64,000 nt of DNA, taken from assembly GCA_963664305.2 (NCBI GenBank), contig CAXXLV010000002.1:1536001-1600000 (forward strand), read 5' to 3'. The notes under the pieces were generated by a model. That model saw only the letters and a program-made list of their open reading frames with translations. It had not been told where the DNA came from and made no database searches. Shown here in pieces: positions 24,189 to 42,179 of this stretch (the first letter of the stretch is position 1; each line of letters opens with the position of its first letter). The position numbers and the translations under genes were made by a program. The DNA is from an uncultured Aliarcobacter sp. (GTDB taxonomy: Bacteria > Campylobacterota > Campylobacteria > Campylobacterales > Arcobacteraceae).

Positions 24189-24221
24189 TCCACTAATCAA
24201 AAAAAATTGAAAAGGAAAATT

Positions 24222-24626
24222 ATGAAAAAAATAAGTTTAGCGGTTTTAGCAACTGCAGTTTTTGCTTTTGGACATGGAAGTGTTACACCTCAAGCAATTG
24301 ATACAAAATCATTAAAACAACTTGGAAAAGAGTGGTTAGGTGAGAATCCTTATAAAGGTGACAAAAAAGCTGAAGAGTTAGGAAAATATGCATATAGCGA
24401 AAACTGTGCTAGATGTCATGGTTTAGATGCAATTTCTGGTGGGGTTGCTCCTGATTTAAGAGCATTAGATGAAGGGATTGATGGTGATGAGTGGTTCTTA
24501 GAAAGAATCAGAGGTGGTGCTGTTAGAAATGGAAATGTTTATATGCCTCCATTTGAAGGTGTATTAACACAAGAAGCTATGTGGGCTATTAGAGCTTACT
24601 TAATTACATTACCAAAGCCTGAATAA
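24222..24626 (+). CDS. pedF: Cytochrome c-550 (PedF/ExaB-like)
   Basis: HGSVTPQAID, CARCHGL.AISGG.APDLR, YMPPF, QEAMWAIR. Confidence 0.88.
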   Translation: MKKISLAVLATAVFAFGHGSVTPQAIDTKSLKQLGKEWLGENPYKGDKKAEELGKYAYSENCARCHGLDAISGGVAPDLRALDEGIDGDEWFLERIRGGAVRNGNVYMPPFEGVLTQEAMWAIRAYLITLPKPE

Positions 24627-25486
24627 TGTTTTTCAAACTTTTTGTAATTCTATTCTTATCTGTTCTAGCAATTGCAAGAAGCATTGACCAAATAAAAGAG
24701 AGTGGAGAAATCATCATAGCAGTTTATGAGGATTTTCCTCCTTACTCTTTTAAAGAAAATGGTGTTGCAAAAGGTATAGATGTAGAAGTTGGAAAACTAA
24801 TCGCTAAATCTTTAAATGTAAAACCAGTATGGTATTTTACGGGTTTTGATGAAAATTTATCTGCAGATTTAAGAAATACAATTTGGAGAGGAAATCTTAT
24901 TCACAAAACAAAAGCTGATGTAATGCTTAGAATTCCTTATGATTACGATTATCTAAGAATGACTGATAAATACACTGGTGAATTAGAAAATGAAAAAGTA
25001 TCAATAAAAGCTCCATATCAAAGTGATAAATGGATTATTGCAACACATAAAAAAGTAATTCCAGAGATAAAAACACTTGGTATTTTTGCATATAACACTA
25101 TTGGTGTTGAAGTAGATACGCTTCCTGATTTTCATCTAATGAGTATTAGAACTATTGGTAAAAATGTAAAACACTACACAAAATTTGAAGATGCTTTTAA
25201 AGATTTTAAAGATGGGAAAATTGATGCAATTGCAGGTTTAAAAACTCAACTTCAATATCTTTTAAATTATAAAAAGAATAAAGATTTATACTATCTTACA
25301 GATGGTATTCCTATGCTTCCAACTAATCATTGGGATTTAGCAACTGCTGTTTCTAGTAGTTATAAAGACCTTAGTTATCATATTGATAATGTTGTAGAAG
25401 ATGCTTACAAAGATGGAAAAATTAAAAAAATCTTTGAAAAATTTAATGTGGAGTATCAAGAGCCGATTTCAAAAACACAAAAATAG
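24626..25486 (+). CDS. Periplasmic binding-fold protein of quinoprotein dehydrogenase clusters (PedG-like)
   Basis: VYEDFPPYSF, GIDVE, DENLSADLRN.IWRG, ADVMLRIPYD. Confidence 0.75.
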   Translation: MFFKLFVILFLSVLAIARSIDQIKESGEIIIAVYEDFPPYSFKENGVAKGIDVEVGKLIAKSLNVKPVWYFTGFDENLSADLRNTIWRGNLIHKTKADVMLRIPYDYDYLRMTDKYTGELENEKVSIKAPYQSDKWIIATHKKVIPEIKTLGIFAYNTIGVEVDTLPDFHLMSIRTIGKNVKHYTKFEDAFKDFKDGKIDAIAGLKTQLQYLLNYKKNKDLYYLTDGIPMLPTNHWDLATAVSSSYKDLSYHIDNVVEDAYKDGKIKKIFEKFNVEYQEPISKTQK

Positions 25487-25495
25487 GAGATTTAT

Positions 25496-26245
25496 ATGAA
25501 AAAAATATTTTTACTGGTTTTATCTTTTTTGATAATTCAAAATTTATACGCCAATAATCCAGTAGCTTCTCCTACTTTTGACTCACTATTAAGTGAATTT
25601 ATCAAAAATGACAAATATATTTTTGATGATAAAAATATAACTATCAAAGTACCAAGTTTTGCTGACAATCCAATCCAAGTGCCAATCTTCGTAGATGCTA
25701 AAAAAATAAAAAATGCAAAAAGAGTTATTGTTTTTGCAGATTTAAATCCAATCCCAAAAATCATTGATATGAATTTAGAAAATGGTCTTTTACCTATTAT
25801 TTCTGTAAATATAAAAGTAGCACAAGAGACACCTCTACGAGCATTAGTTTTAGATGATAAAAATATTTGGCATATTGGAAGTAAAAATATAAAAAGTTTT
25901 GGTGGAGGTTGTTCTGTTTCAAGTGCAGCTTCAGGAGATTCTGATTATGACAAACTTTTAGGTAAAGGTAAAGCTGAAATTTTTAAAAATGAAAATAGTT
26001 TTAGAATAAAAAGTTCAATATTTCATCCTATGGAAACAGGTTTAATATTTGGAAATACTGAATTTTATATAAATAAAATAGTTCTAAAAGCTAACAATAA
26101 AGAGTTTGGAGAAGTTTTAGTTTATTCTGCTGTTAGTGAAAATCCAAGATTTATTTTTGAAACAAATATAGATGAAAAAGAGTACAAACTTGAATTTATG
26201 GATACAGATTCAAATAAATTTATTCAAACAATAACTAAGGAATAA
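25496..26245 (+). CDS. Quinoprotein dehydrogenase-associated SoxYZ-like carrier (fused)
   Basis: DLNPIP, GGGCS swinging-arm Cys, HPMETG, SENP. Confidence 0.85.
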   Translation: MKKIFLLVLSFLIIQNLYANNPVASPTFDSLLSEFIKNDKYIFDDKNITIKVPSFADNPIQVPIFVDAKKIKNAKRVIVFADLNPIPKIIDMNLENGLLPIISVNIKVAQETPLRALVLDDKNIWHIGSKNIKSFGGGCSVSSAASGDSDYDKLLGKGKAEIFKNENSFRIKSSIFHPMETGLIFGNTEFYINKIVLKANNKEFGEVLVYSAVSENPRFIFETNIDEKEYKLEFMDTDSNKFIQTITKE

Positions 26246-26247
26246 AA

Positions 26248-27150
26248 ATGAGATTTTTAATTCTTTTTTATTGTACATTTTTATTTTCTGCCCAGTTTGA
26301 TTATAAGTTAAAACCTATAAAATTAAATGAAAATAGCTACTATTTTTATGGAAAAGAAGAATACTTTTCAACAAAAAATGGTGGAGATATAGCAAACACT
26401 TCATTTATAATCACAAAAAACAGTGTTATTTTAATAGATACCGGAAGTTCAGAACTTTATGGTGAGCAGATTAAAAAGGCTATTTCTAAAATCACTTCAA
26501 AACCTATAAAATATATCATAAACACGCACCATCATCCTGACCATTTTTTAGGAAATAGTGCTTTTATAAATAGCAATATTTATGCTTCAAAATTTACAAA
26601 AGAAGAGATAGAAAACAATGGAGAATTGTATATTACAAATCTAACAAATTTAGTTAATGAAGCAATATCAAATACTAAAGTAAAAGCTCCAAATCAAATA
26701 TTAAATTCAAAAGAATTAGATTTTGATGGTTACAAGTTGAAAGTTTTATATTTTGATGGACATACAAAAAGTGATGTTGCTATTTATGATGAAAAAACAA
26801 AAATTCTTTATGCCTCTGATTTAATTTTTAATAAAAGAACAATGGCTACACCACATGCAAATATAAATAAGTGGATAGCCTCTTTAAAAGAGTTAAAAAA
26901 TATAGATTTTAAACTCACAGTGCCAGGACATGGAATTGCTTTTGAAAATAAAAGTGTAATTGATGAAAATATTAATTATTTAAAATATTTGGATAATACT
27001 CTAAAAAATAGTGCAAAAAAAGGACTTGATATATTTGAAATTTTAAATCTTCCTATTCCAAAAGAGTTCAATAACTTTACAATGTTTAAAGAAGAGTTTG
27101 AAAGAAGTGTTATAAATCTTTATCCAACTTATGAAAAAGAGTTAAATTAA
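26248..27150 (+). CDS. Quinoprotein relay system zinc metallohydrolase (SoxH-like MBL fold)
   Basis: NGGDIAN, IDTG, THHHPDHFLGN, GHT..D, VPGHG. Confidence 0.85.
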   Translation: MRFLILFYCTFLFSAQFDYKLKPIKLNENSYYFYGKEEYFSTKNGGDIANTSFIITKNSVILIDTGSSELYGEQIKKAISKITSKPIKYIINTHHHPDHFLGNSAFINSNIYASKFTKEEIENNGELYITNLTNLVNEAISNTKVKAPNQILNSKELDFDGYKLKVLYFDGHTKSDVAIYDEKTKILYASDLIFNKRTMATPHANINKWIASLKELKNIDFKLTVPGHGIAFENKSVIDENINYLKYLDNTLKNSAKKGLDIFEILNLPIPKEFNNFTMFKEEFERSVINLYPTYEKELN

Positions 27151-29779: not shown

Positions 29780-30589
29780 TTATTTAATTACTATTTTTGC
29801 GTCTTTTCTTAATTCGTCTGTTAATTCTTTTACTTTTTTATTATACGTATTTCCTAATAAAATTTGAGAAATATTTCCTTCTACTTCATTGAAAGTTAAA
29901 GATTTTGCAGGAATTTTATCTTTTAAATAAATAATATGATAACCAAATTGTGTTTTTGTTGGAACTTTAGAATATGCACCTTTTGCTAATGCTTTTGCTG
30001 CAGTTGAAAATTCTGGAACCATTTGATCTGCTGCAAATTTACCTAAATATCCACCATTTTTTTTACCAGTTGGGTCTTCAGTTTTAGCTAAAGCTAATTC
30101 TTTAAATTTTTCTTCTTTGTTTGTAGCTTTATCTAATTGTTTGATGATATCAAAAGCTTCTTTTTCAGTTTTTACTAAAATGTGACTAGCTTCTAAAGTT
30201 TCTGGCATAACAAATTTTTCTTTGTTTTTTTCATAGAAATCTTTTTTTTCTGCATCTGTAAATTTGATTTTTTCAATTTGATTTTTTTGCCATACTTGGA
30301 AAGCTAAATCTTCTTTGATTTTTGTAATTGTTTCAACATATTGAGGATCTTTTTCAATTCCTTCTTCAATTGCTTTTTTAGCTAATAATTTTCTATTGAT
30401 TATTTGCTCTAAAACTTGTTTTTTTGCATTCTCTGGTAATTTATCAAAATCGATTCTTGGATCTTGTAAAGCCATTGAGATATCTTGTTTAGTGATTTGC
30501 TCACCATCAACTGTAGCATAAAAATCAGCTGCATTTAAAGTTGTAATTAAAGCAACTGAAGCAACGAAACTAGACACTATTTTTTTCAT
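29780..30589 (-). CDS. Periplasmic parvulin PPIase (Peb4/Cbf2/PrsA-like)
   Basis: ASHILV, GGYLG, MVPEF, TQFGYHII; signal peptide; upstream of fba. Confidence 0.9.
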   Translation of the reverse strand: MKKIVSSFVASVALITTLNAADFYATVDGEQITKQDISMALQDPRIDFDKLPENAKKQVLEQIINRKLLAKKAIEEGIEKDPQYVETITKIKEDLAFQVWQKNQIEKIKFTDAEKKDFYEKNKEKFVMPETLEASHILVKTEKEAFDIIKQLDKATNKEEKFKELALAKTEDPTGKKNGGYLGKFAADQMVPEFSTAAKALAKGAYSKVPTKTQFGYHIIYLKDKIPAKSLTFNEVEGNISQILLGNTYNKKVKELTDELRKDAKIVIK

Positions 30590-30630
30590 TTTATTCCTTG
30601 AAATTATATTTGGCGTATTTTATCTTTTCA

Positions 30631-30648
30631 TAGTTAATAAATAGTTGA
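30631..30648 (+). repeat. attL core TAGTTAATAAATAGTTGA
   Basis: Exact copy at 40015-40032; flanking sequences differ. Confidence 0.88.
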
Positions 30649-30784
30649 AAAAATTACTTTTTCTTTGTAATTATTTTGTATTCAAATTATAGATAAATTC
30701 GCACTTTCTACACATTTTCTAAAAAGCCTTACATATCTTTTAAATATAAAGATTATGTAAATATTTTTCACAAAAATTGCACAC

Positions 30785-31042
30785 CTATTTTATCTTTTCT
30801 TCTAGAAGTTTTATTTTTTCTTCTAAAGCTTTAATTGTTGGAATCATTTTACCAACTACTTCATCTAAATTCGTATATCCTTCTAGATTACCTTTGATTT
30901 CATTTTCTTTTTGTAAGCCCAATTCAATCAATTTAATTAATTCAGGTTTTGTATCTATCCAGTTATAAATTGTTCCAACAGATATATTAATTCTATCTGC
31001 AATTAATTCTTTTTCTTTTCTCGTTAGTTCTTTAATATACAT
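30785..31042 (-). CDS. Phage repressor-like HTH protein with C-terminal coiled coil
   Basis: ELIADRINISVGTIYNW HTH; divergent from structural operon; SD GGAG before ATG 31042. Confidence 0.7.
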   Translation of the reverse strand: MYIKELTRKEKELIADRINISVGTIYNWIDTKPELIKLIELGLQKENEIKGNLEGYTNLDEVVGKMIPTIKALEEKIKLLEEKIK

Positions 31043-31354
31043 TTTTCTCTCCTTTCCGTACAAATATTAAATTATATACAAATATTAAGCTTAATTTAAT
31101 TATTAAACTATTACAATTCATTAATTTAAATATTGAATTTTATTCAACTATTGAATTACTGTTTATAATTTAGATTAAAAGATTTAAATGCAAACTACAT
31201 GCAAATTCTATCAAAAATCTAATTATTGTACAAATTCTAATTATTTTAATATTGAATTTACTCCCTCTGTAAGTTCAGTTAGTCAAATGAGGGGAAAGAC
31301 ATTTTAGTCGTAGCCGATTGGTATTAAATCGATTAAATAATAAAAGGAAAAAAT

Positions 31355-31735
31355 ATGTCAACTGAAAAAACTACAAACAACTTAGTAAAACCAATTCAAT
31401 TAACTGAACATGGTTGTTATTTATATGGTACTTTAGATGGTATCGACTTTACTGCTTCTGGTGTATTCCCTGAAACTAAAAAACCTTATGGTGCTAGTGT
31501 TAAACTTAAATTTATTATGAAAACATTAAGTCATAAAGAATTAAATGGTGTAAAAATTCCAGTTCAAAATGCTAGGTCTGTAATTGTTAAATTAAATACA
31601 ACAGATGACAAATTACCTGCTTTAGTTCAAAAATATAATGAATTAGTAAGTAAAAACTTATTTGTAAATTATATTCCTAAAGATGGAGATGTTTTAAATA
31701 TTGATGATGAAAATGAGATTATTGAAATAAAGTAA
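31355..31735 (+). CDS. Putative phage ssDNA-binding protein (pV-like)
   Basis: Size and position as first gene before the coat genes; beta-rich; strong SD; no motif proof. Confidence 0.5.
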   Translation: MSTEKTTNNLVKPIQLTEHGCYLYGTLDGIDFTASGVFPETKKPYGASVKLKFIMKTLSHKELNGVKIPVQNARSVIVKLNTTDDKLPALVQKYNELVSKNLFVNYIPKDGDVLNIDDENEIIEIK

Positions 31736-32056
31736 TTTCTTAATGTTGGGGCATTGAGTTTTAATTCCGTACACTCTTGTAAGTCCCCCTCCATTATATA
31801 AGACTCGATTTTTAAAAATACAGAAGATATCTCGGCTCGTTAGATATGTAAGACTGTAATTTTTAAAAATGAGTAAACAAACGAAGTGCGTTAGGCTTCA
31901 AATGATGACTATGAAAAGTCTAGCTATTTGCTACTAGATGGCTCTTTGCACGAATAGAAAAAAATATAAATATTGTTGAGTACATATTTTTTGTGTATTC
32001 AATTTTCTTTATATATGTGTTTGTAGCACATAACTTTAATTTTACGGAGTCACGTT

Positions 32057-32173
32057 ATGGATTTAACAGGTTTAGTTTTTAATACTTCTGATGCTATGGA
32101 AGTTGGGGTTTTAGTTTTAATTGGTACTGGAGTAATCTGGGGTATTAGAAAAGCTATTGGTATGGCTAAGTAA
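32057..32173 (+). CDS. Major coat protein candidate (pVIII-like), 38 aa, no signal peptide: MDLTGLVFNTSDAMEVGVLVLIGTGVIWGIRKAIGMAK
   Basis: SD GGAG; acidic N-terminus, hydrophobic core, basic C-terminus; followed by a hairpin; not in ORF track. Confidence 0.75.
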   Translation: MDLTGLVFNTSDAMEVGVLVLIGTGVIWGIRKAIGMAK

Positions 32174-32190
32174 GGGGGATTTTCTCCCTT
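32172..32190 (+). terminator. Hairpin after the major coat gene
   Basis: AAGGGGGA-TTT-TCTCCCTT then T-rich tail; Ff phages have a terminator after gene VIII. Confidence 0.6.
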
Positions 32191-32226
32191 ATTTCTATTT
32201 CTAAATTTTTTTATAAAGGTTTACAA

Positions 32227-32349
32227 GTGGAAATATTACAAACTTTTACTATCTCTTTCTCTAACTTATCAATTCTTGGAACTGCTCTAATTTTATATCT
32301 AGCTGTTCTTTGGTCTGTAAAAAAAACAATTGAAATAATCTGGGCTTAA
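32227..32349 (+). CDS. Small single-TM virion protein candidate, 40 aa (pVII/pIX-like)
   Basis: GTG start, SD AAGG; MEILQTFTISFSNLSILGTALILYLAVLWSVKKTIEIIWA. Confidence 0.6.
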   Translation: MEILQTFTISFSNLSILGTALILYLAVLWSVKKTIEIIWA

Positions 32350-32350
32350 T

Positions 32351-32494
32351 ATGTATTCATCTACTGATATCGCAACTTATTTAAATCTTTCTTTACAAGA
32401 TTATAGTTTTTTAATGGCTTTAACTGGTTCTTTGTGTGGTTTTACTTTTTTGTTCTTTGCTTGTTATTTAGCTATTGAAATTGGGAGAAAATAA
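32351..32494 (+). CDS. Small single-TM virion protein candidate, 47 aa
   Basis: MYSSTDIATYLNLSLQDYSFLMALTGSLCGFTFLFFACYLAIEIGRK; 1-nt gaps to both neighbouring ORFs. Confidence 0.6.
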   Translation: MYSSTDIATYLNLSLQDYSFLMALTGSLCGFTFLFFACYLAIEIGRK

Positions 32495-32495
32495 T

Positions 32496-32666
32496 ATGAA
32501 ATTAGTTCTATTACTTTTAGTTTTTATTGTTCCATCTTTTGCAAATGATTTAATTATTGTTGCAATAACTCCAGATGATACTTTTAATTTTTTCTTTTCA
32601 ATTTATGTAAATATATCTTTAGTTCTAGCTACTCTTTTTGGTGCTATGGCTCTTATTAGGTCTTAA
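32496..32666 (+). CDS. Small phage membrane protein, 56 aa, with signal peptide
   Basis: MKLVLLLLVFIVPSFA-ND..., C-terminal TM segment; SD GGAG. Confidence 0.6.
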   Translation: MKLVLLLLVFIVPSFANDLIIVAITPDDTFNFFFSIYVNISLVLATLFGAMALIRS

Positions 32667-32668
32667 TT

Positions 32669-34125
<1,457 letters not shown>

Positions 34126-34129
<4 letters not shown>

Positions 34130-34539
34130 TTAATTTAATTTATGCTATTGGTACATATTTAATTACTAAGTTTGGAAAGACTGTTGCTCTTTCTATTATG
34201 TTTGCAACTAATAAAGCTTTGTTGTTTTCTTTAATAGTTTTGTTTATAACAACTCTTTTTAACCTTTTAATGACTACTTATGAAACTGTACAATCAATCT
34301 TCACTAAAATTGAATCTCTTGCTAATGGTTCTTCTATATCTGGATTATCTGATTGTTTTAATATTATTGTTTCATCAACAATCAATGCAACTGGTTTCTT
34401 TGAAGCTTTTAATGTTGTGGGTCCTACATTGTTTTTAGTTTACTTTACTTACTTCAATGTTTTTCTACTAGGTTTTTCTATTGATATCTATAGATTTATA
34501 GATAAATCTGTTACAGAATTTGCTCTTATTGTGAAGTAG
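34126..34539 (+). CDS. Hydrophobic virion protein (pVI-like)
   Basis: Multi-TM; lies between pIII and pI; TTGA overlap. Confidence 0.65.
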
Positions 34540-34545
34540 TTTAAC

Positions 34546-35637
34546 ATGATTCAATTTTGTACGGGAATACCAGGAAGTGGAAAAAGCTATTATGGAATTT
34601 TTAATATAGCTATTCACTTTGCTAAAGATTTAAAAGATAATAAAAAATTTAAATCTTTTGCTCTTAGTGATACTAAATATAAAACTTGTTTAACTAACTT
34701 GAATGAGTTTAAATTTGAAAAATTTGATAATGTTAAAGAATTAGATTTTACTCAATTCAAAGTTATATTAACTAGATTACATAATCTTTATAAAATAGGT
34801 AAATCAGATACAGAATTACAAGAATATGTAAAAGATGAAGATTTCTTTAATACTTTGATTGTTTTTGATGAATGTCAAAATTTCTTAAATAAAGATGATG
34901 AAGTTCTAGTGTGGTGGCTTTCATATCATAGACATTTCCATCAAGATATTATATTAATTACTCAAGATTTACCTTTAGTTCATAAAAAATATAAATCTTT
35001 TACAGAGTTTTATTATAAAGCAATTCCAAGCTCTAGAAAACTTTTTAATTCTCACATGATTTACCATCAATTTACAGGACACCAATTATTCCAAACTCAA
35101 AAAGCTAATACTAAAAAATTACCTATTGTAAAAGAAATGTTTTCTTTATATGGTTCTGGAGAAAACAATAAACAAAAATCTCTTGTAGTTCACTTCTTAG
35201 TTTTTTCATTCTTCTTATTAATTCTTTTATTTATTTTTGCATATTTTTTTGTTTCTTCAATGACTAAAGATGAACCTAAAAAAGATAATAAACCTTTACC
35301 AGTTCAAACACATAATATTAATTCTATTCCAACACCAGTAAAAAAAATTGATGAATTTGAAAGTGCAACTTACTATGAAATATTTTGTAATAAAAATCTT
35401 TGTTTTGTAAATAACAATGTTTTTACTAGAGAATATTTATTAAATATCTTGAGTAAAGAATATAAAACAAGATTTATTCAAATTACTAAAAATAAATATT
35501 ATCTAGTGACTACCGATAAATATAACCTATTTGAAAAAAAGGAGAAAATTAAAGATGAAAATAGTATTAATTCTGGGTTTGATTTTAAGTTGTTTAATAG
35601 CCAACCCCAACCAACAACAGAACCTAAATCAAAATAA
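34546..35637 (+). CDS. Morphogenesis ATPase pI / Zot-like
   Basis: GIPGSGKS Walker A, IVFDECQ Walker B, HRH...ILITQ, TM segment after the ATPase. Confidence 0.9.
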   Translation: MIQFCTGIPGSGKSYYGIFNIAIHFAKDLKDNKKFKSFALSDTKYKTCLTNLNEFKFEKFDNVKELDFTQFKVILTRLHNLYKIGKSDTELQEYVKDEDFFNTLIVFDECQNFLNKDDEVLVWWLSYHRHFHQDIILITQDLPLVHKKYKSFTEFYYKAIPSSRKLFNSHMIYHQFTGHQLFQTQKANTKKLPIVKEMFSLYGSGENNKQKSLVVHFLVFSFFLLILLFIFAYFFVSSMTKDEPKKDNKPLPVQTHNINSIPTPVKKIDEFESATYYEIFCNKNLCFVNNNVFTREYLLNILSKEYKTRFIQITKNKYYLVTTDKYNLFEKKEKIKDENSINSGFDFKLFNSQPQPTTEPKSK

Positions 35638-36826
35638 TTTAGAGTATGTAGAAACTGATTTAAAATCTTTTTCTATTGAAGTATTATCTAGTTTAGATAA
35701 AACATTCATCATTCAAGATGATTTGCTAAAAGATATAGTTGTTTACTATAAACCAGAACAAAATAATCTTAACTTCTTAATTCAAGTTTTAAATAACAAT
35801 GATTATGAAATTAAGATATCTAATAATGTTTACTATATTTTAAAAAAGAAAGAGTTAGAAGTTCTAAAAGAGGATTTAGTTGTTAATACTATCCAACTTC
35901 ATAAAATAGATTTTGAATATATAAAAACTCTTTTTGCAGTTTATAAAGATATAGAATATACTTTTATTCCATCTTCTAAACTTTTAATTTTAAAATCTAC
36001 TCAAGCTGATTATGAAAATATTAAAAAGATTGTTTCTTATGTTGATAACACTCCAAAACAATTAAAAGTTAAAATCACTATTCTTGATACAAACCTAAAC
36101 AAAATAAAAGAGTATGGAACAGAATTAACTCAAAATATAAATCAATCATCTAATTTTTTCTTTAATCTTTTAGCATATCCTTTTCAAGTATCTAGTAATA
36201 TAAACTCTACTCAAAAAGATAATTTTACTTCATTTGTTAAACTTCTTAATCAAAATAAAATTACTGAACTTGTTGCAAGTCCAACTTTAACACTTTCAGA
36301 TAATGAAGCAGTTGCTTTTAATCTTGTAAAAAATATTCCTTATCTTTCAGGCTCTACAACTGTTGATGATAATAACACTAAAACAACAAATACATACACT
36401 TACAAAGATATAGGTTTAAAAATCTCAATTACACCTAAAATTTATAATGATGAAGTTCAAATTAACTTAGAACTTACAAGTGAGTCAATCTTGGATAGTT
36501 CAAACACTCCTAAAACTTCAAAATCATTTATTAAACAAGTTTTTTCATTAGCTAAAAATAGATTATTTGTTTTAACTGGTATCAATCAAACTCAAAAATA
36601 TGAAGATACTCAAAAGACTACTTTTTTAGGAGATATTCCTTTTTTAGGTTGGTTATTTAAAACAGATACAAATGATACAACTTCTTCAAATTTAACTATT
36701 TTACTTGAACTAATAAATGAAGATGATTACTCAACAAATGACTTTAATGTGATAGTTCCAAATAAAAAAATTCAATCTTTGGAACATGAAAAAAGAGTTA
36801 ATGAAATCTTAGGTTTGAAAAATTAA
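35555..36826 (+). CDS. Secretin (pIV-like phage extrusion channel)
   Basis: SPTLTL.DN, YKDIGLKISITPKI, LGDIPFLGWLFK secretin motifs; signal peptide from ATG 35555. Confidence 0.88.
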   Translation: MKIVLILGLILSCLIANPNQQQNLNQNNLEYVETDLKSFSIEVLSSLDKTFIIQDDLLKDIVVYYKPEQNNLNFLIQVLNNNDYEIKISNNVYYILKKKELEVLKEDLVVNTIQLHKIDFEYIKTLFAVYKDIEYTFIPSSKLLILKSTQADYENIKKIVSYVDNTPKQLKVKITILDTNLNKIKEYGTELTQNINQSSNFFFNLLAYPFQVSSNINSTQKDNFTSFVKLLNQNKITELVASPTLTLSDNEAVAFNLVKNIPYLSGSTTVDDNNTKTTNTYTYKDIGLKISITPKIYNDEVQINLELTSESILDSSNTPKTSKSFIKQVFSLAKNRLFVLTGINQTQKYEDTQKTTFLGDIPFLGWLFKTDTNDTTSSNLTILLELINEDDYSTNDFNVIVPNKKIQSLEHEKRVNEILGLKN

Positions 36827-36841
36827 TTTAAAGGTTAAAAA

Positions 36842-37045
36842 ATGAAACAATCAAGAATACTAAAAATGAAAATTCTTATTTTAAAAACAAATATTTTTAA
36901 AACTATTAAAGATTATGATTTAAAACCTTCTTTTATTTATCATCCTTTTACAAAACAGTTTATTGGAAAGTGTATTTTAGATTGCAAATTATTAGAATTA
37001 AAAAAATTAGAAAATGAATTAAAAAATTTAGCCACGACTTTTTAA
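36842..37045 (+). CDS. Hypothetical 67-aa basic phage protein
   Basis: SD AAGG; co-oriented after pIV; no recognised motif. Confidence 0.5.
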   Translation: MKQSRILKMKILILKTNIFKTIKDYDLKPSFIYHPFTKQFIGKCILDCKLLELKKLENELKNLATTF

Positions 37046-37179
37046 ATCATAAAATTTAAAAAGTGTGGGAACTATTGGAAGATATCTAACCTATTAATGA
37101 ATATTTACCCAATAGTTTAACGAGCAAATGGTTTACCTTTTATAGGTTTTAAATTGAGTGGAGTAACAAAAACAACTTT

Positions 37180-37224
37180 CTCACAAGTGGCAGCTTGTCT
37201 GCCACTGTGAGGAAGTCTTGATTA
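37180..37224 (+). other. Candidate rolling-circle origin (GC-rich hairpin plus TCTTGATTA)
   Basis: CTCAC-A-AGTGGCAG/CTGCCACT-GTGAG stem at 37180-37211, directly upstream of rep. Confidence 0.55.
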
Positions 37225-37264
37225 CTTTTAAAAAAGTTACTACACCTAAATAGGAGAAATAGAA

Positions 37265-38578
37265 ATGTACGGAATTACTAAAGAAGATATCCAAGTTATT
37301 GATATAAAACTAGAAGAACAAAGAAAATATATTACAAGTAGATTTTTTGATTTTGGGGACGAGTCAAAGTCAGCTTTAGAGTTCACATACTCTGCAAACT
37401 TAAATCCTAAAAAGTATTTCGCAGAAATGAATAACAGAATTAACAGTATCTTTGATTATGCAAGGGAATTAAATTTAAAACCAGTATTTTGCACAATTAC
37501 AGCACCCTCAAAATATCACAAATGTAATGTAAATGGAGAGTTAAAAATCAATCCAAATGAAACAGCAAAAGAACTAACACAAATATTTAATAAATTTACA
37601 AATCTAAGGATTTTCCAAAAGATGAAAAAACAATTAGGACATGGGCTTATTTACTTTAGAGTTTATGAACCTCATAAATCAGGAGTTCCACATTTACACG
37701 CTATGTTATTTGTTCCAACTGATTATATACTAGATATAAAAAAGAAATTCTATGAATATTTTACAAATAAAGTAAAATGGGGAAATAATAGAAAATCTTT
37801 AGATTTTAAATATACTTGGTATAACTCTGCAGGTGGTGCAATAGCTTATATTATGAAGTATGTAACTAAGACTTTTAAAAATGAAAGTGATAAATCAACT
37901 CAATATGCTTCATATTGGTATATTAAACATAACATTAGAAGATTTCTTTGTTCAAGGACTTTAGCACCTCTTACAATTTATAGAAAAATTAGATACTTCT
38001 TTAAAAACCAAAAAAACGATTATCTAAAAGTTACTGAACTAATTAAGAATAATCAAATACATAGATTATTTGAAAATACAACTTACTCATATATGCGATT
38101 TAACTATGAAACTGGAGAAATTGAAGATATCACAGTTTGGCAAAAAAATACAGATTTAATTCTAAGAAGTAGAATAAAACTAAATGAAACTTTCAAACTA
38201 GAATATAAGAAAAAAGAACATAAAAAGGCTCTTTCTGTATTTGTAAATGACTTTGTAAAATATGTACATAGTGAAACTTTAAATAAATTTGTTTTACTTC
38301 CAGTAATACCAAGTAAACTAAAAGATTACCAACTAAATAACTATTACCATATTTTAGAAAATACAGATATTGATTCCCTTGATTTAGTACATTTTGAATT
38401 AGTTAAAAATGAAATGATTAAAAGAGGATTCCTAAATCAAACACCAACCAATATGAATGAATTTATAAAAGATTTTAATTTTAATCCCTTTATGAGTTCA
38501 ATCGAAAAAGTTAAATTTTCTAGAGTATTTGAACATGATTTAAACATTCCGTTTGTATCACATCAAAATTTATTTTAA
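37265..38578 (+). CDS. HUH rolling-circle replication initiator (gpA-like, two Tyr)
   Basis: FCTITAPSKYH (motif I), EPHKSGVPHLH (HUH), AYIMKYVTKT (YxxKY). Confidence 0.88.
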   Translation: MYGITKEDIQVIDIKLEEQRKYITSRFFDFGDESKSALEFTYSANLNPKKYFAEMNNRINSIFDYARELNLKPVFCTITAPSKYHKCNVNGELKINPNETAKELTQIFNKFTNLRIFQKMKKQLGHGLIYFRVYEPHKSGVPHLHAMLFVPTDYILDIKKKFYEYFTNKVKWGNNRKSLDFKYTWYNSAGGAIAYIMKYVTKTFKNESDKSTQYASYWYIKHNIRRFLCSRTLAPLTIYRKIRYFFKNQKNDYLKVTELIKNNQIHRLFENTTYSYMRFNYETGEIEDITVWQKNTDLILRSRIKLNETFKLEYKKKEHKKALSVFVNDFVKYVHSETLNKFVLLPVIPSKLKDYQLNNYYHILENTDIDSLDLVHFELVKNEMIKRGFLNQTPTNMNEFIKDFNFNPFMSSIEKVKFSRVFEHDLNIPFVSHQNLF

Positions 38579-38667
38579 GGATTAAAAAAAGACAAAAAAG
38601 AGTTATTTTCTTGTTATTTTATTTTCAATAGTTATTTACTATTATAAATTAATATAAAGGAAAATTT

Positions 38668-38951
38668 ATGTCGTATGATTCTTTTAAAAATTTGGATTTA
38701 ATTCCAACTTTGTTAGAGAAACTTTTTTTTTAGAGGAAAAAATAAAATTATTGGAAAATAATCTTATTCAAACTCCTGATTTAACAAAAAGAAAAAATGT
38801 GAGAGAATATCTTGATATCTCTGAATCAACTTTAAATAATATGTTTAAAGATGGAAGATTAAAACAAGGTTATCACTATCATAAATCTTTTAAGAATAAT
38901 AGGATTAAGATTGTATTTGTAGAAAGTGCGATTAAGGAGTTGAAAAAATGA
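38668..38951 (+). pseudogene. Excisionase-like HTH gene interrupted by a T9 tract (frameshifted or phase-variable)
   Basis: SD AAGGA plus ATG 38668; stop at codon 22 (TAG 38731); -1 frame continues LEEKIKLLENN...VREYLDISESTL (HTH) and overlaps the integrase start. Confidence 0.7.
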
Positions 38952-39964
38952 CTTTTTCTAATCGTAATGGAAAATTATATGTTTCGATAAATGGTGTAAG
39001 AAAATCAACTAAATTAAAATATTCAAAAGAGAATATTAAAAAGTTTAAATCTTATTATCAAGATGAAGAGTTCTTTAACAAATTTAATATTAATAAATCT
39101 GTTCCAACTATTGTAGATTTATGTTATGAAGTTCTTGAGATAAAAGAAAAGCATTTAAAACGAAATTCTTATAGGTGTTATCTTGCTTTAATTGAAAGTA
39201 GAATAGTTCCATATTTTAAAAAAATGTATGTTACTGAATTAAAACCTATAGATGTTTATAACTGGTTTAATACTTTTAGTTCTTCTCAAACTTTAAATAT
39301 CTGCTATACAATCCTAAAAAGTGCTTTTGAAAGAGCTATTATAAAAAACTATATTTCTTCAAGTCCTTTTATAATTAAAAGACCTAAAATAAAAACAAAT
39401 TATAAAATTAATCCTTTCACTTTTGATGAAGCTAAAAAAATTATTGAATTTGCTCCACATAATTTAAAAAACTTTTTTGGTTTTGCTTTCTTTACTGGGG
39501 CAAGAACTGGAGAAATATTTGGTTTAAAGTGGAATAATGTAGATTTTGAAAACTTCAATATAAAAATTGATTCTCAAATTACAATGGGTTGTATAGATAC
39601 TCCTAAAACTTTATCTAGTGAAAGAGTTATTGATATGCTGCCACAATGTGAATATTACTTAAAAGAACAATTTAAAATTACTGGAGCTTATGAATTTGTT
39701 TTTTTAAATGAGCATAATAATTACTATACTTCGACTTCTGTTTTTAAACATATTTGGGTTCAGCTCCTTAAAGATTTAAAATTAGAATATAGAAGTGTTT
39801 ATCAAACAAGACACACTTTTGCTAGTAATATGATTTCAGGTGGAGAGAATCCTCTTTGGGTTTCACAAATGTTAGGACATAAATCTCTAAATACTACTTT
39901 AACTAAGTATTCAAGATATATAAAAAGAAATGAAATAAGAAAATATACATTTTTAGATTCTTAA
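38948..39964 (+). CDS. Tyrosine recombinase / phage integrase
   Basis: TGARTGE (R), PKT (K), YQTRHTFAS, LGH, Y. Confidence 0.93.
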   Translation: MTFSNRNGKLYVSINGVRKSTKLKYSKENIKKFKSYYQDEEFFNKFNINKSVPTIVDLCYEVLEIKEKHLKRNSYRCYLALIESRIVPYFKKMYVTELKPIDVYNWFNTFSSSQTLNICYTILKSAFERAIIKNYISSSPFIIKRPKIKTNYKINPFTFDEAKKIIEFAPHNLKNFFGFAFFTGARTGEIFGLKWNNVDFENFNIKIDSQITMGCIDTPKTLSSERVIDMLPQCEYYLKEQFKITGAYEFVFLNEHNNYYTSTSVFKHIWVQLLKDLKLEYRSVYQTRHTFASNMISGGENPLWVSQMLGHKSLNTTLTKYSRYIKRNEIRKYTFLDS

Positions 39965-40014
39965 ATCCAATTTTTTAACAGTTTAAAATTAGGGATTGTT
40001 TTTTGGGGATTTTG

Positions 40015-40032
40015 TAGTTAATAAATAGTTGA
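40015..40032 (+). repeat. attR core TAGTTAATAAATAGTTGA
   Basis: 50 nt after the integrase stop; exact copy of 30631-30648. Confidence 0.88.
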
Positions 40033-40189
40033 TTTTTTGTAAATAAATTGCAAGTTTGTAAAATAATTTTTAGAAAATTTTTTTATATTTTATAAATTTA
40101 AAAATTTAGCTTAAAAAAGCTTTAAATTTTCTATTTTTTATGATACAATTCCGACCAAATTTAAATTTAACTTAAATTTAAGGAAAAAT

Positions 40190-40879
40190 ATGAGAATTTT
40201 GATTATTGAAGACGAAATTACACTAAACAGAACATTACAAGAAGGTCTAACTGACTTTGGATATCAAGTTGATACTGCAGAAAACTATAAAGATGCAGAA
40301 TATTTCATTGATATTAGAAACTATGACTTAGTATTAACAGATTGGATGTTACCAGATGGTGATGGTATTGAACTTTGCAAAATTGTAAAAAATAGAAGTT
40401 CAAGAACAGCTGTTGTTATAATCTCAGCTAGAGACGATAAAGAATCAGAAATTGAAGCATTAAAATCTGGTGCAGATGATTTTATTAAAAAACCATTTGA
40501 TTTTGACATTTTACTTGCAAGAATTGAAGCAAGATTAAGATTTGGTGGAACAAACGTAATCGAAATTGATGATTTAGTAATTAATCCTGATGAAGAAAAA
40601 ATTGAATATGCTGGTGAAGAGATTGAATTAAAAGGTAAACCTTTTGAAGTTTTAACTCACTTAGCAAGACACAGAGACCAAATTGTTTCTAAAGAGCAAT
40701 TATTAGATGCAATCTGGGAAGAACCAGAATTAGTTACTCCAAACGTTATTGAAGTTGCGATTAACCAAATTAGACAAAAAATGGATAAACCATTAAATAT
40801 CTCTACTATTGAAACTATCAGAAGAAGAGGATATAGATTCTGTTATCCAAATGCTGCGGAAGAAACTAAATTAAAATAA
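40190..40879 (+). CDS. OmpR-family regulator, HsrA(HP1043)/CosR type
   Basis: IRNYDLV, KGKPFEVLTHLARHRDQIVSKEQLLDAIWEEPE, VIEVAINQIRQKMDKPL. Confidence 0.9.
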   Translation: MRILIIEDEITLNRTLQEGLTDFGYQVDTAENYKDAEYFIDIRNYDLVLTDWMLPDGDGIELCKIVKNRSSRTAVVIISARDDKESEIEALKSGADDFIKKPFDFDILLARIEARLRFGGTNVIEIDDLVINPDEEKIEYAGEEIELKGKPFEVLTHLARHRDQIVSKEQLLDAIWEEPELVTPNVIEVAINQIRQKMDKPLNISTIETIRRRGYRFCYPNAAEETKLK

Positions 40880-40901
40880 TTTCTCTGTACGGTATTTAAA
40901 A

Positions 40902-42179
40902 ATGGAAAGCAAAAGTATTTATAGACAATTTTATAATAAATTGATTATAGCTACTTCGCTTTTTATTATTGCTCTCTCTTTTATTTTTTATGAATACGCA
41001 AGAAGCACTGTTTATGATGACATCCAAGAAAATATGATTGGACAAGCAAAACAAATCCAAAAAAACTACATTTCTCCTGATAAATTTACTTCTGTAAAAA
41101 CACAATTTCAAAGTATTGATATAGTTAAAAATGTTGAACTTCAAGATATTAAATTTTTTAATTATCAAATGGGTGGAAAATATTATATAAAACTACTATA
41201 TCCATTTAATCTAGAAAATGGAGAATTTTTACAAATTATAAAAAATATCAGTTTAGAAAGAGAACTTTTATACTCTGTTATTTTTAAAAATCTTTTTATT
41301 TTGGCAATTCCTGGTTTTATTTTAATGCTTTTATACTCTTTAGTGGTTTCTAAATCACTTTTAAAACCAATTATGCAAATAAATAAAAAACTTGCAAATA
41401 TGGATGAACACTCTTTATCTCAAATTGATACAAAAGATTTACCTATTGAATTTCACTCTTTAGCAAACTCTATTAACTCTTTAACAAATAGAATAGGTAC
41501 TTATGTAAAATTTAAAAAAGAGTTATTTATAGGTGCTGCACATGAGCTTAAAACACCACTTGCAGTTATGAAATTAAAAAATGAAGTTACATTAAAGAAA
41601 AAAAGAGAAATTGAACAATACGAAGAGACTTTAAGACTTACGATAAAATCAATTGATGATATGAATATTATGATTTCATCTATTTTAGATATAGGAAGAA
41701 CAGAAGGTGCTCAGTTTGAACAAACGACAGAAATAGACTTAGTTGAGTATATCAAGAAAAAAGCAAATGACTATAGAATGTTAAGTGCTCAAAAAAATAT
41801 TATAATCACATTTTTTTCAAATATAAACCATCTAAATACTTCTATTCAAGTAACACTATTTAATCAAATATTACAAAATTTTGTACAAAATGCTATTAAG
41901 TTTACTCCAAATGAAAAAACAATAGATATTAGACTTAGAAAAACAAAAAAAGAAATTATCATTACTGTAACTGATGAAGGTATTGGAATTGATGAGAATA
42001 TTGATTTGTTTGCACCATTTAAAAGAGTTGGAAATCAAAGTGGTGTTGGATTAGGATTATTTCTTGCTAAAAATGCAGCTGATGCATTAAGAGCAAATAT
42101 TAGTATAAAAAATAGAGAAGATGGAAAATCAGGATGTGTTGCTAAACTTGTACTTAACAACACATCAAAAAATGATTAA
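40902..42179 (+). CDS. Membrane sensor histidine kinase (HAMP-HisKA-HATPase)
   Basis: AHELKTPL, QNAIKF, DEGIGI, GVGLGL. Confidence 0.9.
   Translation: MESKSIYRQFYNKLIIATSLFIIALSFIFYEYARSTVYDDIQENMIGQAKQIQKNYISPDKFTSVKTQFQSIDIVKNVELQDIKFFNYQMGGKYYIKLLYPFNLENGEFLQIIKNISLERELLYSVIFKNLFILAIPGFILMLLYSLVVSKSLLKPIMQINKKLANMDEHSLSQIDTKDLPIEFHSLANSINSLTNRIGTYVKFKKELFIGAAHELKTPLAVMKLKNEVTLKKKREIEQYEETLRLTIKSIDDMNIMISSILDIGRTEGAQFEQTTEIDLVEYIKKKANDYRMLSAQKNIIITFFSNINHLNTSIQVTLFNQILQNFVQNAIKFTPNEKTIDIRLRKTKKEIIITVTDEGIGIDENIDLFAPFKRVGNQSGVGLGLFLAKNAADALRANISIKNREDGKSGCVAKLVLNNTSKND

What the first reader, a model, noticed from the sequence alone, without database searches (positions are those of the whole stretch)
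38668..38951. Excisionase-like gene switched off by a T9 homopolymer
Seen: a good SD and ATG at 38668 read MSYDSFKNLDLIPTLLEKLFF then TAG (38731), at the end of a T9 run (38723-38731). One extra T (or a -1 shift) gives a 94-aa protein continuing LEEKIKLLENN into the HTH ORF that overlaps the integrase start. Inference: slipped-strand phase variation, transcriptional or ribosomal slippage, or a domestication mutation could lock the prophage in place or make excision stochastic. A homopolymer sequencing error is a real alternative.
Basis: partly seen in the sequence, partly recalled or inferred. Interest (0 to 1): 0.75.

Follow-up and report, generated by a model that had tools for sequence, protein, structure and literature searches.

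The report
Frameshifted excisionase in a filamentous prophage
A filamentous virus lodged in this bacterium's chromosome has a one-base frameshift at a run of nine T's in its predicted excision gene, which likely keeps the virus in place; its relatives lack the run, so this looks like an ordinary private mutation rather than an evolved on/off switch.

Summary
In detail: ATG 38668, T9 at 38723-38731, TAG after 21 codons. The gene lies in a 9.4-kb inovirus-type prophage whose att site is empty in 11 of 12 related loci. 91 of 100 collected homologs are 93 aa or longer, so the long protein is the real gene; it folds like winged-helix excisionases. An error is unlikely: contigs from two runs of one sample carry T9, and no other 9-mer in the genome looks like a broken gene. 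But the tract is not conserved: 38 of 38 other loci are in frame with T-runs of 5 or less, and 0 of 85 homologs carry the Phe that T10 would encode. The break sits where a head from one lineage joins a body from another. Best reading: a recent, private loss-of-function that likely grounds the prophage. It may be leaky or revertible (no MutL found; the same T9/+1 geometry as Shigella mxiE) or rescued by an intact paralog on a 5.2-kb element in the same genome. It is not an evolved switch on present evidence.

The parts
30631..30648 (+). attL core, 18-nt direct repeat; prophage inserted between a PPIase (PrsA/SurA-like) gene and a response-regulator gene
   Evidence: repeat; single copy joining both flanks in 11 of 12 related loci; flanking genes
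30785..31063 (-). divergent HTH regulator, likely the prophage repressor (92 aa)
   Evidence: weak HTH / regulator hits; 64% identical to the gene in the same place in inovirus L032
31355..31735 (+). 126-aa ORF, by position likely the ssDNA-binding protein
   Evidence: no family hit; 72% and 53% identical in viral contigs L080, L081; role inferred from gene order
31793..31902 (+). non-coding hairpin-forming stretch shared with the second element of this genome (75%) and with L080 (93%); candidate origin or packaging signal
   Evidence: function inferred
32057..32666 (+). four small hydrophobic ORFs (38, 40, 47, 56 aa), likely major and minor coat proteins
   Evidence: no Pfam hit for the three scanned; role inferred from size, hydrophobicity and order
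32669..34539 (+). pIII-like Gly/Ser-rich attachment protein (486 aa) and pVI-like membrane protein (137 aa)
   Evidence: weak tail-fibre PHROG hit for the first; roles inferred
34546..35637 (+). Zot/pI-family morphogenesis ATPase, intact, Walker A at residues 7-14
   Evidence: PF05707 1e-16; phrog_197, phrog_1675
35531..36826 (+). pIV secretin
   Evidence: PF00263 4e-27; phrog_1012 1e-42
37265..38578 (+). rolling-circle replication initiator (HUH motif, YxxKYxxK), intact
   Evidence: PF05840 1e-20, PF23343; in a cluster of 20 mostly 433-437-aa members
38656..38661 (+). Shine-Dalgarno sequence of the xis-like gene, 6 nt before the ATG
38668..38733 (+). head of the xis-like gene: 21 codons, then premature TAG; encodes the first part of the predicted N-terminal helix
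38723..38731 (+). T9 run at the frameshift; the gene is one base short of its relatives here; also the head/body mosaic joint
38727..38951 (+). body of the xis-like gene in the shifted frame (residues 21-94), holding the whole winged-helix domain; includes the 66-aa TTG ORF 38751-38951
38948..39964 (+). tyrosine integrase, intact, with its own strong SD
   Evidence: PF00589 4e-21, PF14659; phrog_1; same length as 3 of 3 other cluster members
40015..40032 (+). attR core, identical to attL core

Best explanation
The excisionase-like gene of an otherwise intact 9.4-kb filamentous prophage carries a one-base frameshift at a T9 run that none of its relatives share, which likely removes the full-length protein and so likely holds the prophage in the chromosome while the integrase stays intact. 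Shown: the frameshift, the intact att cores, Rep, integrase and morphogenesis genes, the lack of the tract in relatives, and a change of nearest relative exactly at the tract. Inferred: the 94-aa protein is the recombination directionality factor for the adjacent integrase; ribosomes stop after 21 codons; the internal TTG start is weak and its product lacks most of a family-wide N-terminal helix; excision therefore falls. Inferred origin: a Leu-X-Phe-Leu stretch of the head lineage (X = Val or Leu in the closest heads) lost one base, either through a substitution that made a longer T run which then contracted, through loss of the single non-T base, or through an off-register recombination join. 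The lock is probably not absolute: a T9 run can slip in DNA, in transcription or on the ribosome, and an intact paralog exists in the genome.
For: Break and tract. Full-length form is the norm: 91 of 100 collected proteins are 93 aa or longer; the 66-aa form is on one contig only, this genome's. Tract private: 38 of 38 other distinct loci in frame, T-runs at most 5 in the head; residue 20 is L36, S24, T10, V9, E5, Q1 and F in 0 of 85; three contigs in runs X4 and X5 have one more base and non-T letters here, as does X3; no second carrier in 183 family genomes. Mosaic joint: 6-7 of 19 head differences against 1-3 of 74 body differences to four body relatives (Fisher p 4e-5 to 2e-3), while eight members of that clade differ by at most 2 in the head. 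Excisionase-like: PHROG excisionase families hit 33-35 of 41 members; top three structural neighbours are excisionases, Z 6.4, 5.9, 5.4. TTG start poorly placed: SD spacer 13-14 nt, seen in 16 of 946 ORFs. Removing the N-terminal helix of the excisionase RdfS abolished excision in vivo (PMC11963761). Integrase has its own SD. Grounding by loss of excision factors is a described route (PMC6379469).
Against: No function was tested. The structural scores are below 8, the range the tool calls ambiguous, Foldseek gave no hit at E 0.001, and the PHROG hits are weak (best 1e-4). The 66-aa product keeps the whole winged-helix fold, and several excisionases of 52-57 residues are little more than that domain. 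In Pseudomonas Pf4 the integrase, when overproduced, excises without XisF4 (PMC7379572). The intact paralog shares the recognition helix and could act in trans. Only one sample holds this prophage, so variation within the species is unseen. The mosaic test was chosen after seeing the data.
Confidence: 0.66

Rival explanations
1. Incidental rescue: the break arose by accident, but RNA-polymerase slippage on U9, or a -1 ribosomal slip on U-UUU-UUU before the stop, makes enough full-length protein for near-normal excision.
For: Same geometry as Shigella mxiE (T9; one extra U joins two ORFs; PMC1088944, PMC6260861). E. coli RNAP slips on runs of 7 or more T (PMC6260861). A slippery heptamer is in frame. 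Small amounts of an excision activator can suffice (FseA, 4-13%, PMC4755241).
Against: No 3' stimulator beyond chance (z -0.97). Six other sense-strand T9 runs sit inside intact ORFs of this genome, so slippage there is tolerable and probably modest. The product would carry Phe20, seen in 0 of 85 homologs. No data on this host's polymerase.
Confidence: 0.12
2. Evolved phase-variable or programmed switch: the T tract is kept by selection to toggle or throttle prophage excision.
For: MutL not found in 44 of 44 genus genomes including this one, though found in 11 of 14 controls, so tract slippage would go unrepaired. Poly-A/T tracts are reported as candidate phase-variable sites in Arcobacter butzleri (10.1101/775932). 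T9 is the longest run in the prophage.
Against: No conservation: 0 of 38 loci, 0 of 85 proteins, non-T letters in the nearest relatives. Runs of 10 are nearly absent from the genome (3 in 2.78 Mb). No other tract length among the X1/X2 contigs (contigs drop rare variants). The same preprint notes most such tracts occur in single genomes.
Confidence: 0.07
3. The 66-aa protein from TTG 38751 is made, by re-initiation after the stop or from its own SD, and does the job alone.
For: It folds as a complete winged helix (pLDDT 84); an AGAGGA motif and the premature stop lie just upstream; solved excisionases of 52-57 residues exist. Four 45-50-aa forms are on record in a sister cluster.
Against: SD spacer 13-14 nt (16 of 946). 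The N-terminal helix is kept across the family (91 of 100 proteins at least 93 aa; most of 87 distant representatives align from the first 20 profile positions). RdfS lacking its N-terminal helix binds DNA but cannot excise.
Confidence: 0.07
4. Homopolymer sequencing or assembly error; the cell's gene is intact.
For: X1 and X2 are one sample, probably the source of the assembly, of unrecorded library type and depth about 9-12, so a shared systematic miscall is not excluded. All relatives are in frame.
Against: Two separately assembled runs give the same T9 on 38-kb contigs with no differences. No genome-wide pattern of broken 9-mers (the one 10-mer candidate is a gene junction). The error-free allele would need Phe20, unseen in 85 homologs.
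Confidence: 0.05
5. The gene is dead but dispensable: the intact 94-aa paralog on the 5.2-kb element at C2:1252709-1257948 supplies excisionase in trans (compatible with the best explanation as to origin, not as to outcome).
For: 77% identical to the intact relative P0047, same HTH recognition helix; the two integrases are 64% identical and the elements share a non-coding hairpin stretch.
Against: The wing and C-terminal residues differ at 19 of 74 body positions; att cores differ; expression of the paralog is unknown.
Confidence: 0.1

Closest known systems
Pseudomonas Pf4/Pf5 inoviruses with XisF4/XisF5 and IntF4/IntF5 (PMC7379572)
   Same: Integrated filamentous prophage with a tyrosine integrase, a small excisionase, a repressor and a rolling-circle initiator; loss of xis lowers excision below detection.
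   Different: Here xis lies between Rep and int and overlaps int, has a 30-residue N-terminal helix, and is broken by a natural frameshift; the host is an Arcobacter-type bacterium; no sequence link to XisF4 was tested.
Winged-helix excisionases: Pukovnik Xis (4J2N), KpR49 (2KVV), GIsul2 Xis (8C3T), RdfS (8DGL)
   Same: Predicted fold of residues 36-95 matches them best (Z 6.4-4.8); RdfS also has an extra N-terminal helix needed in vivo.
   Different: 10-19% identity, Z below 8; the helix here is much longer and coiled-coil-like; activity not shown.
Shigella mxiE transcriptional slippage (PMC1088944, PMC6260861)
   Same: T9 in the sense strand at the overlap of two frames; one added U would give the long product.
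   Different: mxiE slippage is shown by experiment and is the gene's normal mode of expression; here all relatives are single in-frame ORFs without the run.
FseA programmed frameshift controlling ICEMlSym R7A excision (PMC4755241)
   Same: A frameshift that throttles a factor upstream of excision.
   Different: FseA uses a conserved +1 ribosomal site in the activator of the excisionase; here the shift is in the excisionase-like gene itself, needs -1, and is not conserved.
Grounded (cryptic) prophages (PMC6379469)
   Same: Loss of an excision factor with the rest of the element in place.
   Different: An early stage: att cores identical, no other broken gene found, lesion possibly reversible.

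Membership tests
Inovirus-type integrated prophage | pI/Zot morphogenesis ATPase | tested here: met
   PF05707 1e-16 over cut-off; phrog_197, phrog_1675
Inovirus-type integrated prophage | rolling-circle initiator and (for diderm hosts) pIV secretin in a genome of about 5-15 kb | tested here: met
   9,384 bp between att cores; size range recalled
Inovirus-type integrated prophage | small single-helix coat proteins | tested here: inconclusive
   four small hydrophobic ORFs in the expected place, no family hit for the three scanned
Inovirus-type integrated prophage | releases filamentous virions | not testable with these tools
   needs culture
Winged-helix recombination directionality factor (Xis) | small basic protein encoded beside a tyrosine integrase | tested here: met
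   overlaps int start; same pairing in L032, L061, L075, L082
Winged-helix recombination directionality factor (Xis) | Xis/MerR-like winged-helix fold or excisionase profile match | tested here: met
   weakly: top three of 48,161 chains are excisionases, Z 5.4-6.4; PHROG excisionase hits in 33-35 of 41 members, best E 1e-4; HTH_17 below Pfam cut-off
Winged-helix recombination directionality factor (Xis) | binds attL/attR and stimulates excision | not testable with these tools
   needs a recombination assay
Phase-variable contingency locus (simple-sequence repeat) | slippage-prone run inside the coding sequence in a mismatch-repair-poor host | tested here: met
   T9; MutL family not found in 44 of 44 genus genomes, though a MutS_I domain is present
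Phase-variable contingency locus (simple-sequence repeat) | tract conserved among homologs with ON and OFF lengths | tested here: not met
   0 of 38 loci, 0 of 85 proteins with Phe20; non-T letters in relatives
Phase-variable contingency locus (simple-sequence repeat) | mixed tract lengths within one population | tested here: inconclusive
   only T9 in contigs of X1, X2; contigs drop rare variants, raw reads not held
Programmed transcriptional slippage gene (mxiE type) | 9 or more A/T at the overlap of two frames | tested here: met
Programmed transcriptional slippage gene (mxiE type) | split and run conserved in orthologs | tested here: not met
Programmed transcriptional slippage gene (mxiE type) | length-heterogeneous mRNA | not testable with these tools
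   no RNA holder listed
Programmed -1 ribosomal frameshift | in-frame slippery heptamer | tested here: met
   CUU UUU UUU before UAG
Programmed -1 ribosomal frameshift | 3' stimulatory structure and conservation of the site | tested here: not met
   -7.1 kcal/mol, z -0.97, 30 of 200 shuffles as good; site absent in relatives

The most novel reading that the evidence does not exclude
A filamentous prophage caught acquiring a slippage valve: in a host without MutL, a newly made T9 run turns its excisionase into a leaky, revertible gene, so that excision and virion release happen only in rare cells (by slippage) or when a co-resident 5.2-kb satellite-like element lends its own excisionase; this would be a direct view of how an mxiE- or FseA-like throttle on phage mobility is born from an accident.
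Probability: 0.13. Interest if true: 0.6.

Novelty: new member of a known kind. Interest (0 to 1): 0.24.

Why it matters
As it stands this is a clean, early example of a prophage being grounded by one base, in an Arcobacter-type inovirus family that has almost no annotation (no match in 50,697 phage or 72,556 plasmid records). It shows that a split gene at a T9 run can mimic the mxiE geometry without being a conserved switch. If slippage or the paralog does give low-level excision, the locus would be a natural test case for how frameshift throttles on mobile elements begin.

Tried and rejected
No RNA holder listed: nothing on expression. No attP or attB joint among X1/X2 contigs, which run unbroken through both att cores: uninformative, since wild-type Pf4 excises in about 1 of a million cells and contigs drop rare forms. 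Homodimer prediction for the intact relative gave no answer (score 0.03): not used either way. Protein atlas gave no result. Foldseek found nothing at E 0.001; the sequence search of PDB gave only weak coiled-coil hits for the N-terminal helix. Viral-contig, metagenome and genome scans returned few close loci; the two closest viral contigs by Rep (L080, L081) gave no match to this xis. DNA search of 184 family genomes with the head and tract gave only short AT-rich noise besides this genome. My first homopolymer census missed this very locus because of its thresholds and was redone; its ten A8 candidate rows were not followed up. The A10 at C1:146589 looked like a frameshift but is a junction of two genes. 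Promoter scan was at chance level (20 found, 23 expected); no Rfam match in 30000-41000. The protein tree placed the gene among the ITFL-type relatives without strong support (45 nearest full-length rows plus two outgroups, 40 further rows left out). The earlier-findings index returned nothing. Literature: searches for excisionase + frameshift + homopolymer + prophage excision (one unrelated work listed) and excisionase + phase variation + prophage + slipped-strand (none) found no report of a homopolymer-switched excisionase; the Arcobacter/prophage/zot/inovirus search (20 of 60 listed) showed no paper on an Arcobacter inovirus. The library lacks most subscription papers.

Full report
Observation. 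The coordinates are right. ATG 38668 reads 21 codons to a TAG whose first base ends a T9 run at 38723-38731. An AGGA core lies 6 nt before the ATG, the commonest spacing in this genome (774 of 946 SD-bearing long ORFs have 5-9 nt). The shifted frame continues to TGA 38951 and overlaps the integrase ATG. Head and body together make 94 codons.

Setting. The genome is 2.78 Mb and 27% G+C; named members of homolog clusters are Arcobacter and Aliarcobacter proteins, so the host is of that group. An 18-nt direct repeat at 30631 and 40015 bounds a 9,384-bp element. The same core is found with at most one mismatch in 15 of 43 other genus genomes, and in 11 of the 12 loci fetched it joins the two flanks directly, an empty attB. 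Inside lie a divergent regulator, an ssb-like ORF, four small hydrophobic ORFs, pIII- and pVI-like genes, a Zot/pI ATPase, a pIV secretin, a rolling-circle Rep, the xis-like gene and a tyrosine integrase: an inovirus-type prophage. I found no other broken gene; Rep and integrase have the length of most or all of their cluster members. The flanking genes scanned are housekeeping and metabolic (35 ORFs of 19903-54535).

What the gene is. Of 100 family proteins collected are 93 aa or longer; the 66-aa form is on record on one contig, this genome's. An intact relative folds (pLDDT 88) into a 30-residue N-terminal helix and a winged-helix domain. Against 48,161 solved chains the top three matches are excisionases (KpR49 Z 6.4, rmsd 5.3, 63 aligned; Pukovnik Xis Z 5.9, rmsd 1.9, 51; GIsul2 Xis Z 5.4, rmsd 2.8, 52). 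These scores are modest and Foldseek had no hit at E 0.001, but PHROG excisionase families match 33-35 of 41 members and the gene abuts an integrase in L032, L061, L075 and L082. 'Excisionase' is a good inference, not a tested function.

Is T9 an error? Probably not. Contigs from runs X1 and X2 span 30300-38861 with no other letters and no gaps. They are one sample, probably the assembly's source, with library type not on record, so this is a second assembly and not a second sample. As a control for systematic miscalls, of 104 exact A9/T9 runs 46 sit in intact ORFs, 54 in none, and 4 yield an ORF only after a shift; three of the four are 39-69 nt from an ORF end and were not checked further, and the fourth is this locus. 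The single 10-mer candidate is a gene junction.

Is it a switch? The test is conservation, and it fails. In 38 of 38 other distinct loci the gene is in frame and the longest T run in the head is 5 (A runs reach 8). Residue 20, which would be Phe in an in-frame longer T run, is Leu 36, Ser 24, Thr 10, Val 9, Glu 5, Gln 1 and never Phe in 85 full-length proteins. Three contigs from two environmental runs that cover the site have one more base and non-T letters there (X4, X5; X7 and X9 gave only short pieces), as does X3. No second carrier turned up in 183 family genomes. The downstream RNA folds no better than shuffles (z -0.97).

Origin. The gene is a mosaic. Residues 21-94 differ from four intact relatives at only 1-3 of 74 places, but residues 1-19 differ at 6-7 of 19 (Fisher p 4e-5 to 2e-3; eight members of that clade differ among themselves by at most 2 in the head; test chosen after seeing the data). 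The head is closest (16 of 19) to a lineage reading Leu-Val-Phe-Leu or Leu-Leu-Phe-Leu. One X5 contig has its ten listed differences and its extra base all at 38706-38725 and none listed beyond (13 differences in all). So the frameshift lies at the joint. A substitution that lengthened the run followed by contraction, loss of the one non-T base, or an off-register join would each give T9; I cannot separate them.

Likely consequence (inferred). Translation stops after 21 codons. The TTG at 38751 has its SD 13-14 nt away (16 of 946). Its product would still fold as a winged helix but lacks most of the family-wide helix; in RdfS, removal of the N-terminal helix left DNA binding but abolished excision (PMC11963761, passages). 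The integrase has its own SD. In the Pf inoviruses, loss of xis brings excision below detection, although overproduced IntF4 can excise alone (PMC7379572, abstract and one results section). So the prophage is likely grounded, a described state (PMC6379469, passages).

Why the lock may leak. The MutL family was not found in 44 of 44 genus genomes but in 11 of 14 controls. T9 needing one added U is the arrangement of Shigella mxiE (PMC1088944 and PMC6260861, passages), and a 4-13% frameshift suffices for ICE excision through FseA (PMC4755241, passages). Poly-A/T tracts are candidate phase-variable sites in A. butzleri, mostly in single genomes (10.1101/775932, passages; its supplementary table of tract-bearing genes could not be seen and might list phage genes). 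The genome also holds a 5.2-kb element with Rep, an intact paralog with the same recognition helix, and an integrase, which could act in trans. None of this was tested.

Verdict. A real frameshift in a probable excisionase of a previously unannotated Arcobacter-type inovirus; most likely a recent private mutation (0.66), not a conserved or programmed switch (0.07). My searches found no report of a homopolymer-switched excisionase, so the leaky-valve reading would be of interest if shown, but the evidence here points to an ordinary grounded prophage. Interest 0.24.

Noticed in passing
G000:C2:1252709-1257948 (L061:9710-14949): A second, 5.2-kb integrated element with its own 18-nt att repeat, empty in G027 and G019: regulator, small ssb-like ORF, rolling-circle Rep, intact xis paralog, integrase and three cargo ORFs (one DUF2513-like), but no coat or morphogenesis genes. 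It looks like a satellite that could use the inovirus as helper.
   Followed up: partly
window 31793-31902 and L061:12399-12508: A 110-nt non-coding, hairpin-forming stretch is shared (75%) by the inovirus and the satellite-like element in different gene contexts, and is 93% identical in viral contig L080; candidate packaging signal or replication origin.
   Followed up: partly
window 38579-38680: The Rep-xis gap is a variable slot: 89 nt here, replaced by 1,047 other letters in run X3, and holding three small ORFs in L032 and L082.
   Followed up: partly
proteins P0055, P0057, P0058, P0059 (cluster of P0002): Four 45-50-aa forms starting at the internal GTG occur in a sister cluster whose intact members read Leu-Ser-Phe-Leu at the tract position; they may be independent truncations of this gene or gene-calling artefacts. 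Their DNA could not be fetched.
   Followed up: no
L080:10054-11500: A viral contig with an 80% identical Rep has a different integrase (37%) and no match to this xis, showing swap of the integration module among these inoviruses.
   Followed up: no
G000:C2:1442271-1442600: A MutS_I domain in a 984-codon open frame although no MutL family match was found in this or 43 other genus genomes.
   Followed up: no
whole genome: No G or C run longer than 6, and a steep drop from 9-mers (104) to 10-mers (3); sense-strand A9 outnumbers T9 40 to 6 in intact ORFs.
   Followed up: partly
window 24207-27150: PQQ-dehydrogenase relay genes (cytochrome c550 PedF, SoxYZ-like carrier, metallohydrolase TIGR04558); the metallo-beta-lactamase-fold protein scores far below the beta-lactamase cut-offs.
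   Followed up: no
window 33350-33670: Gly/Ser/Thr repeats inside the pIII-like gene (self-matches).
   Followed up: no
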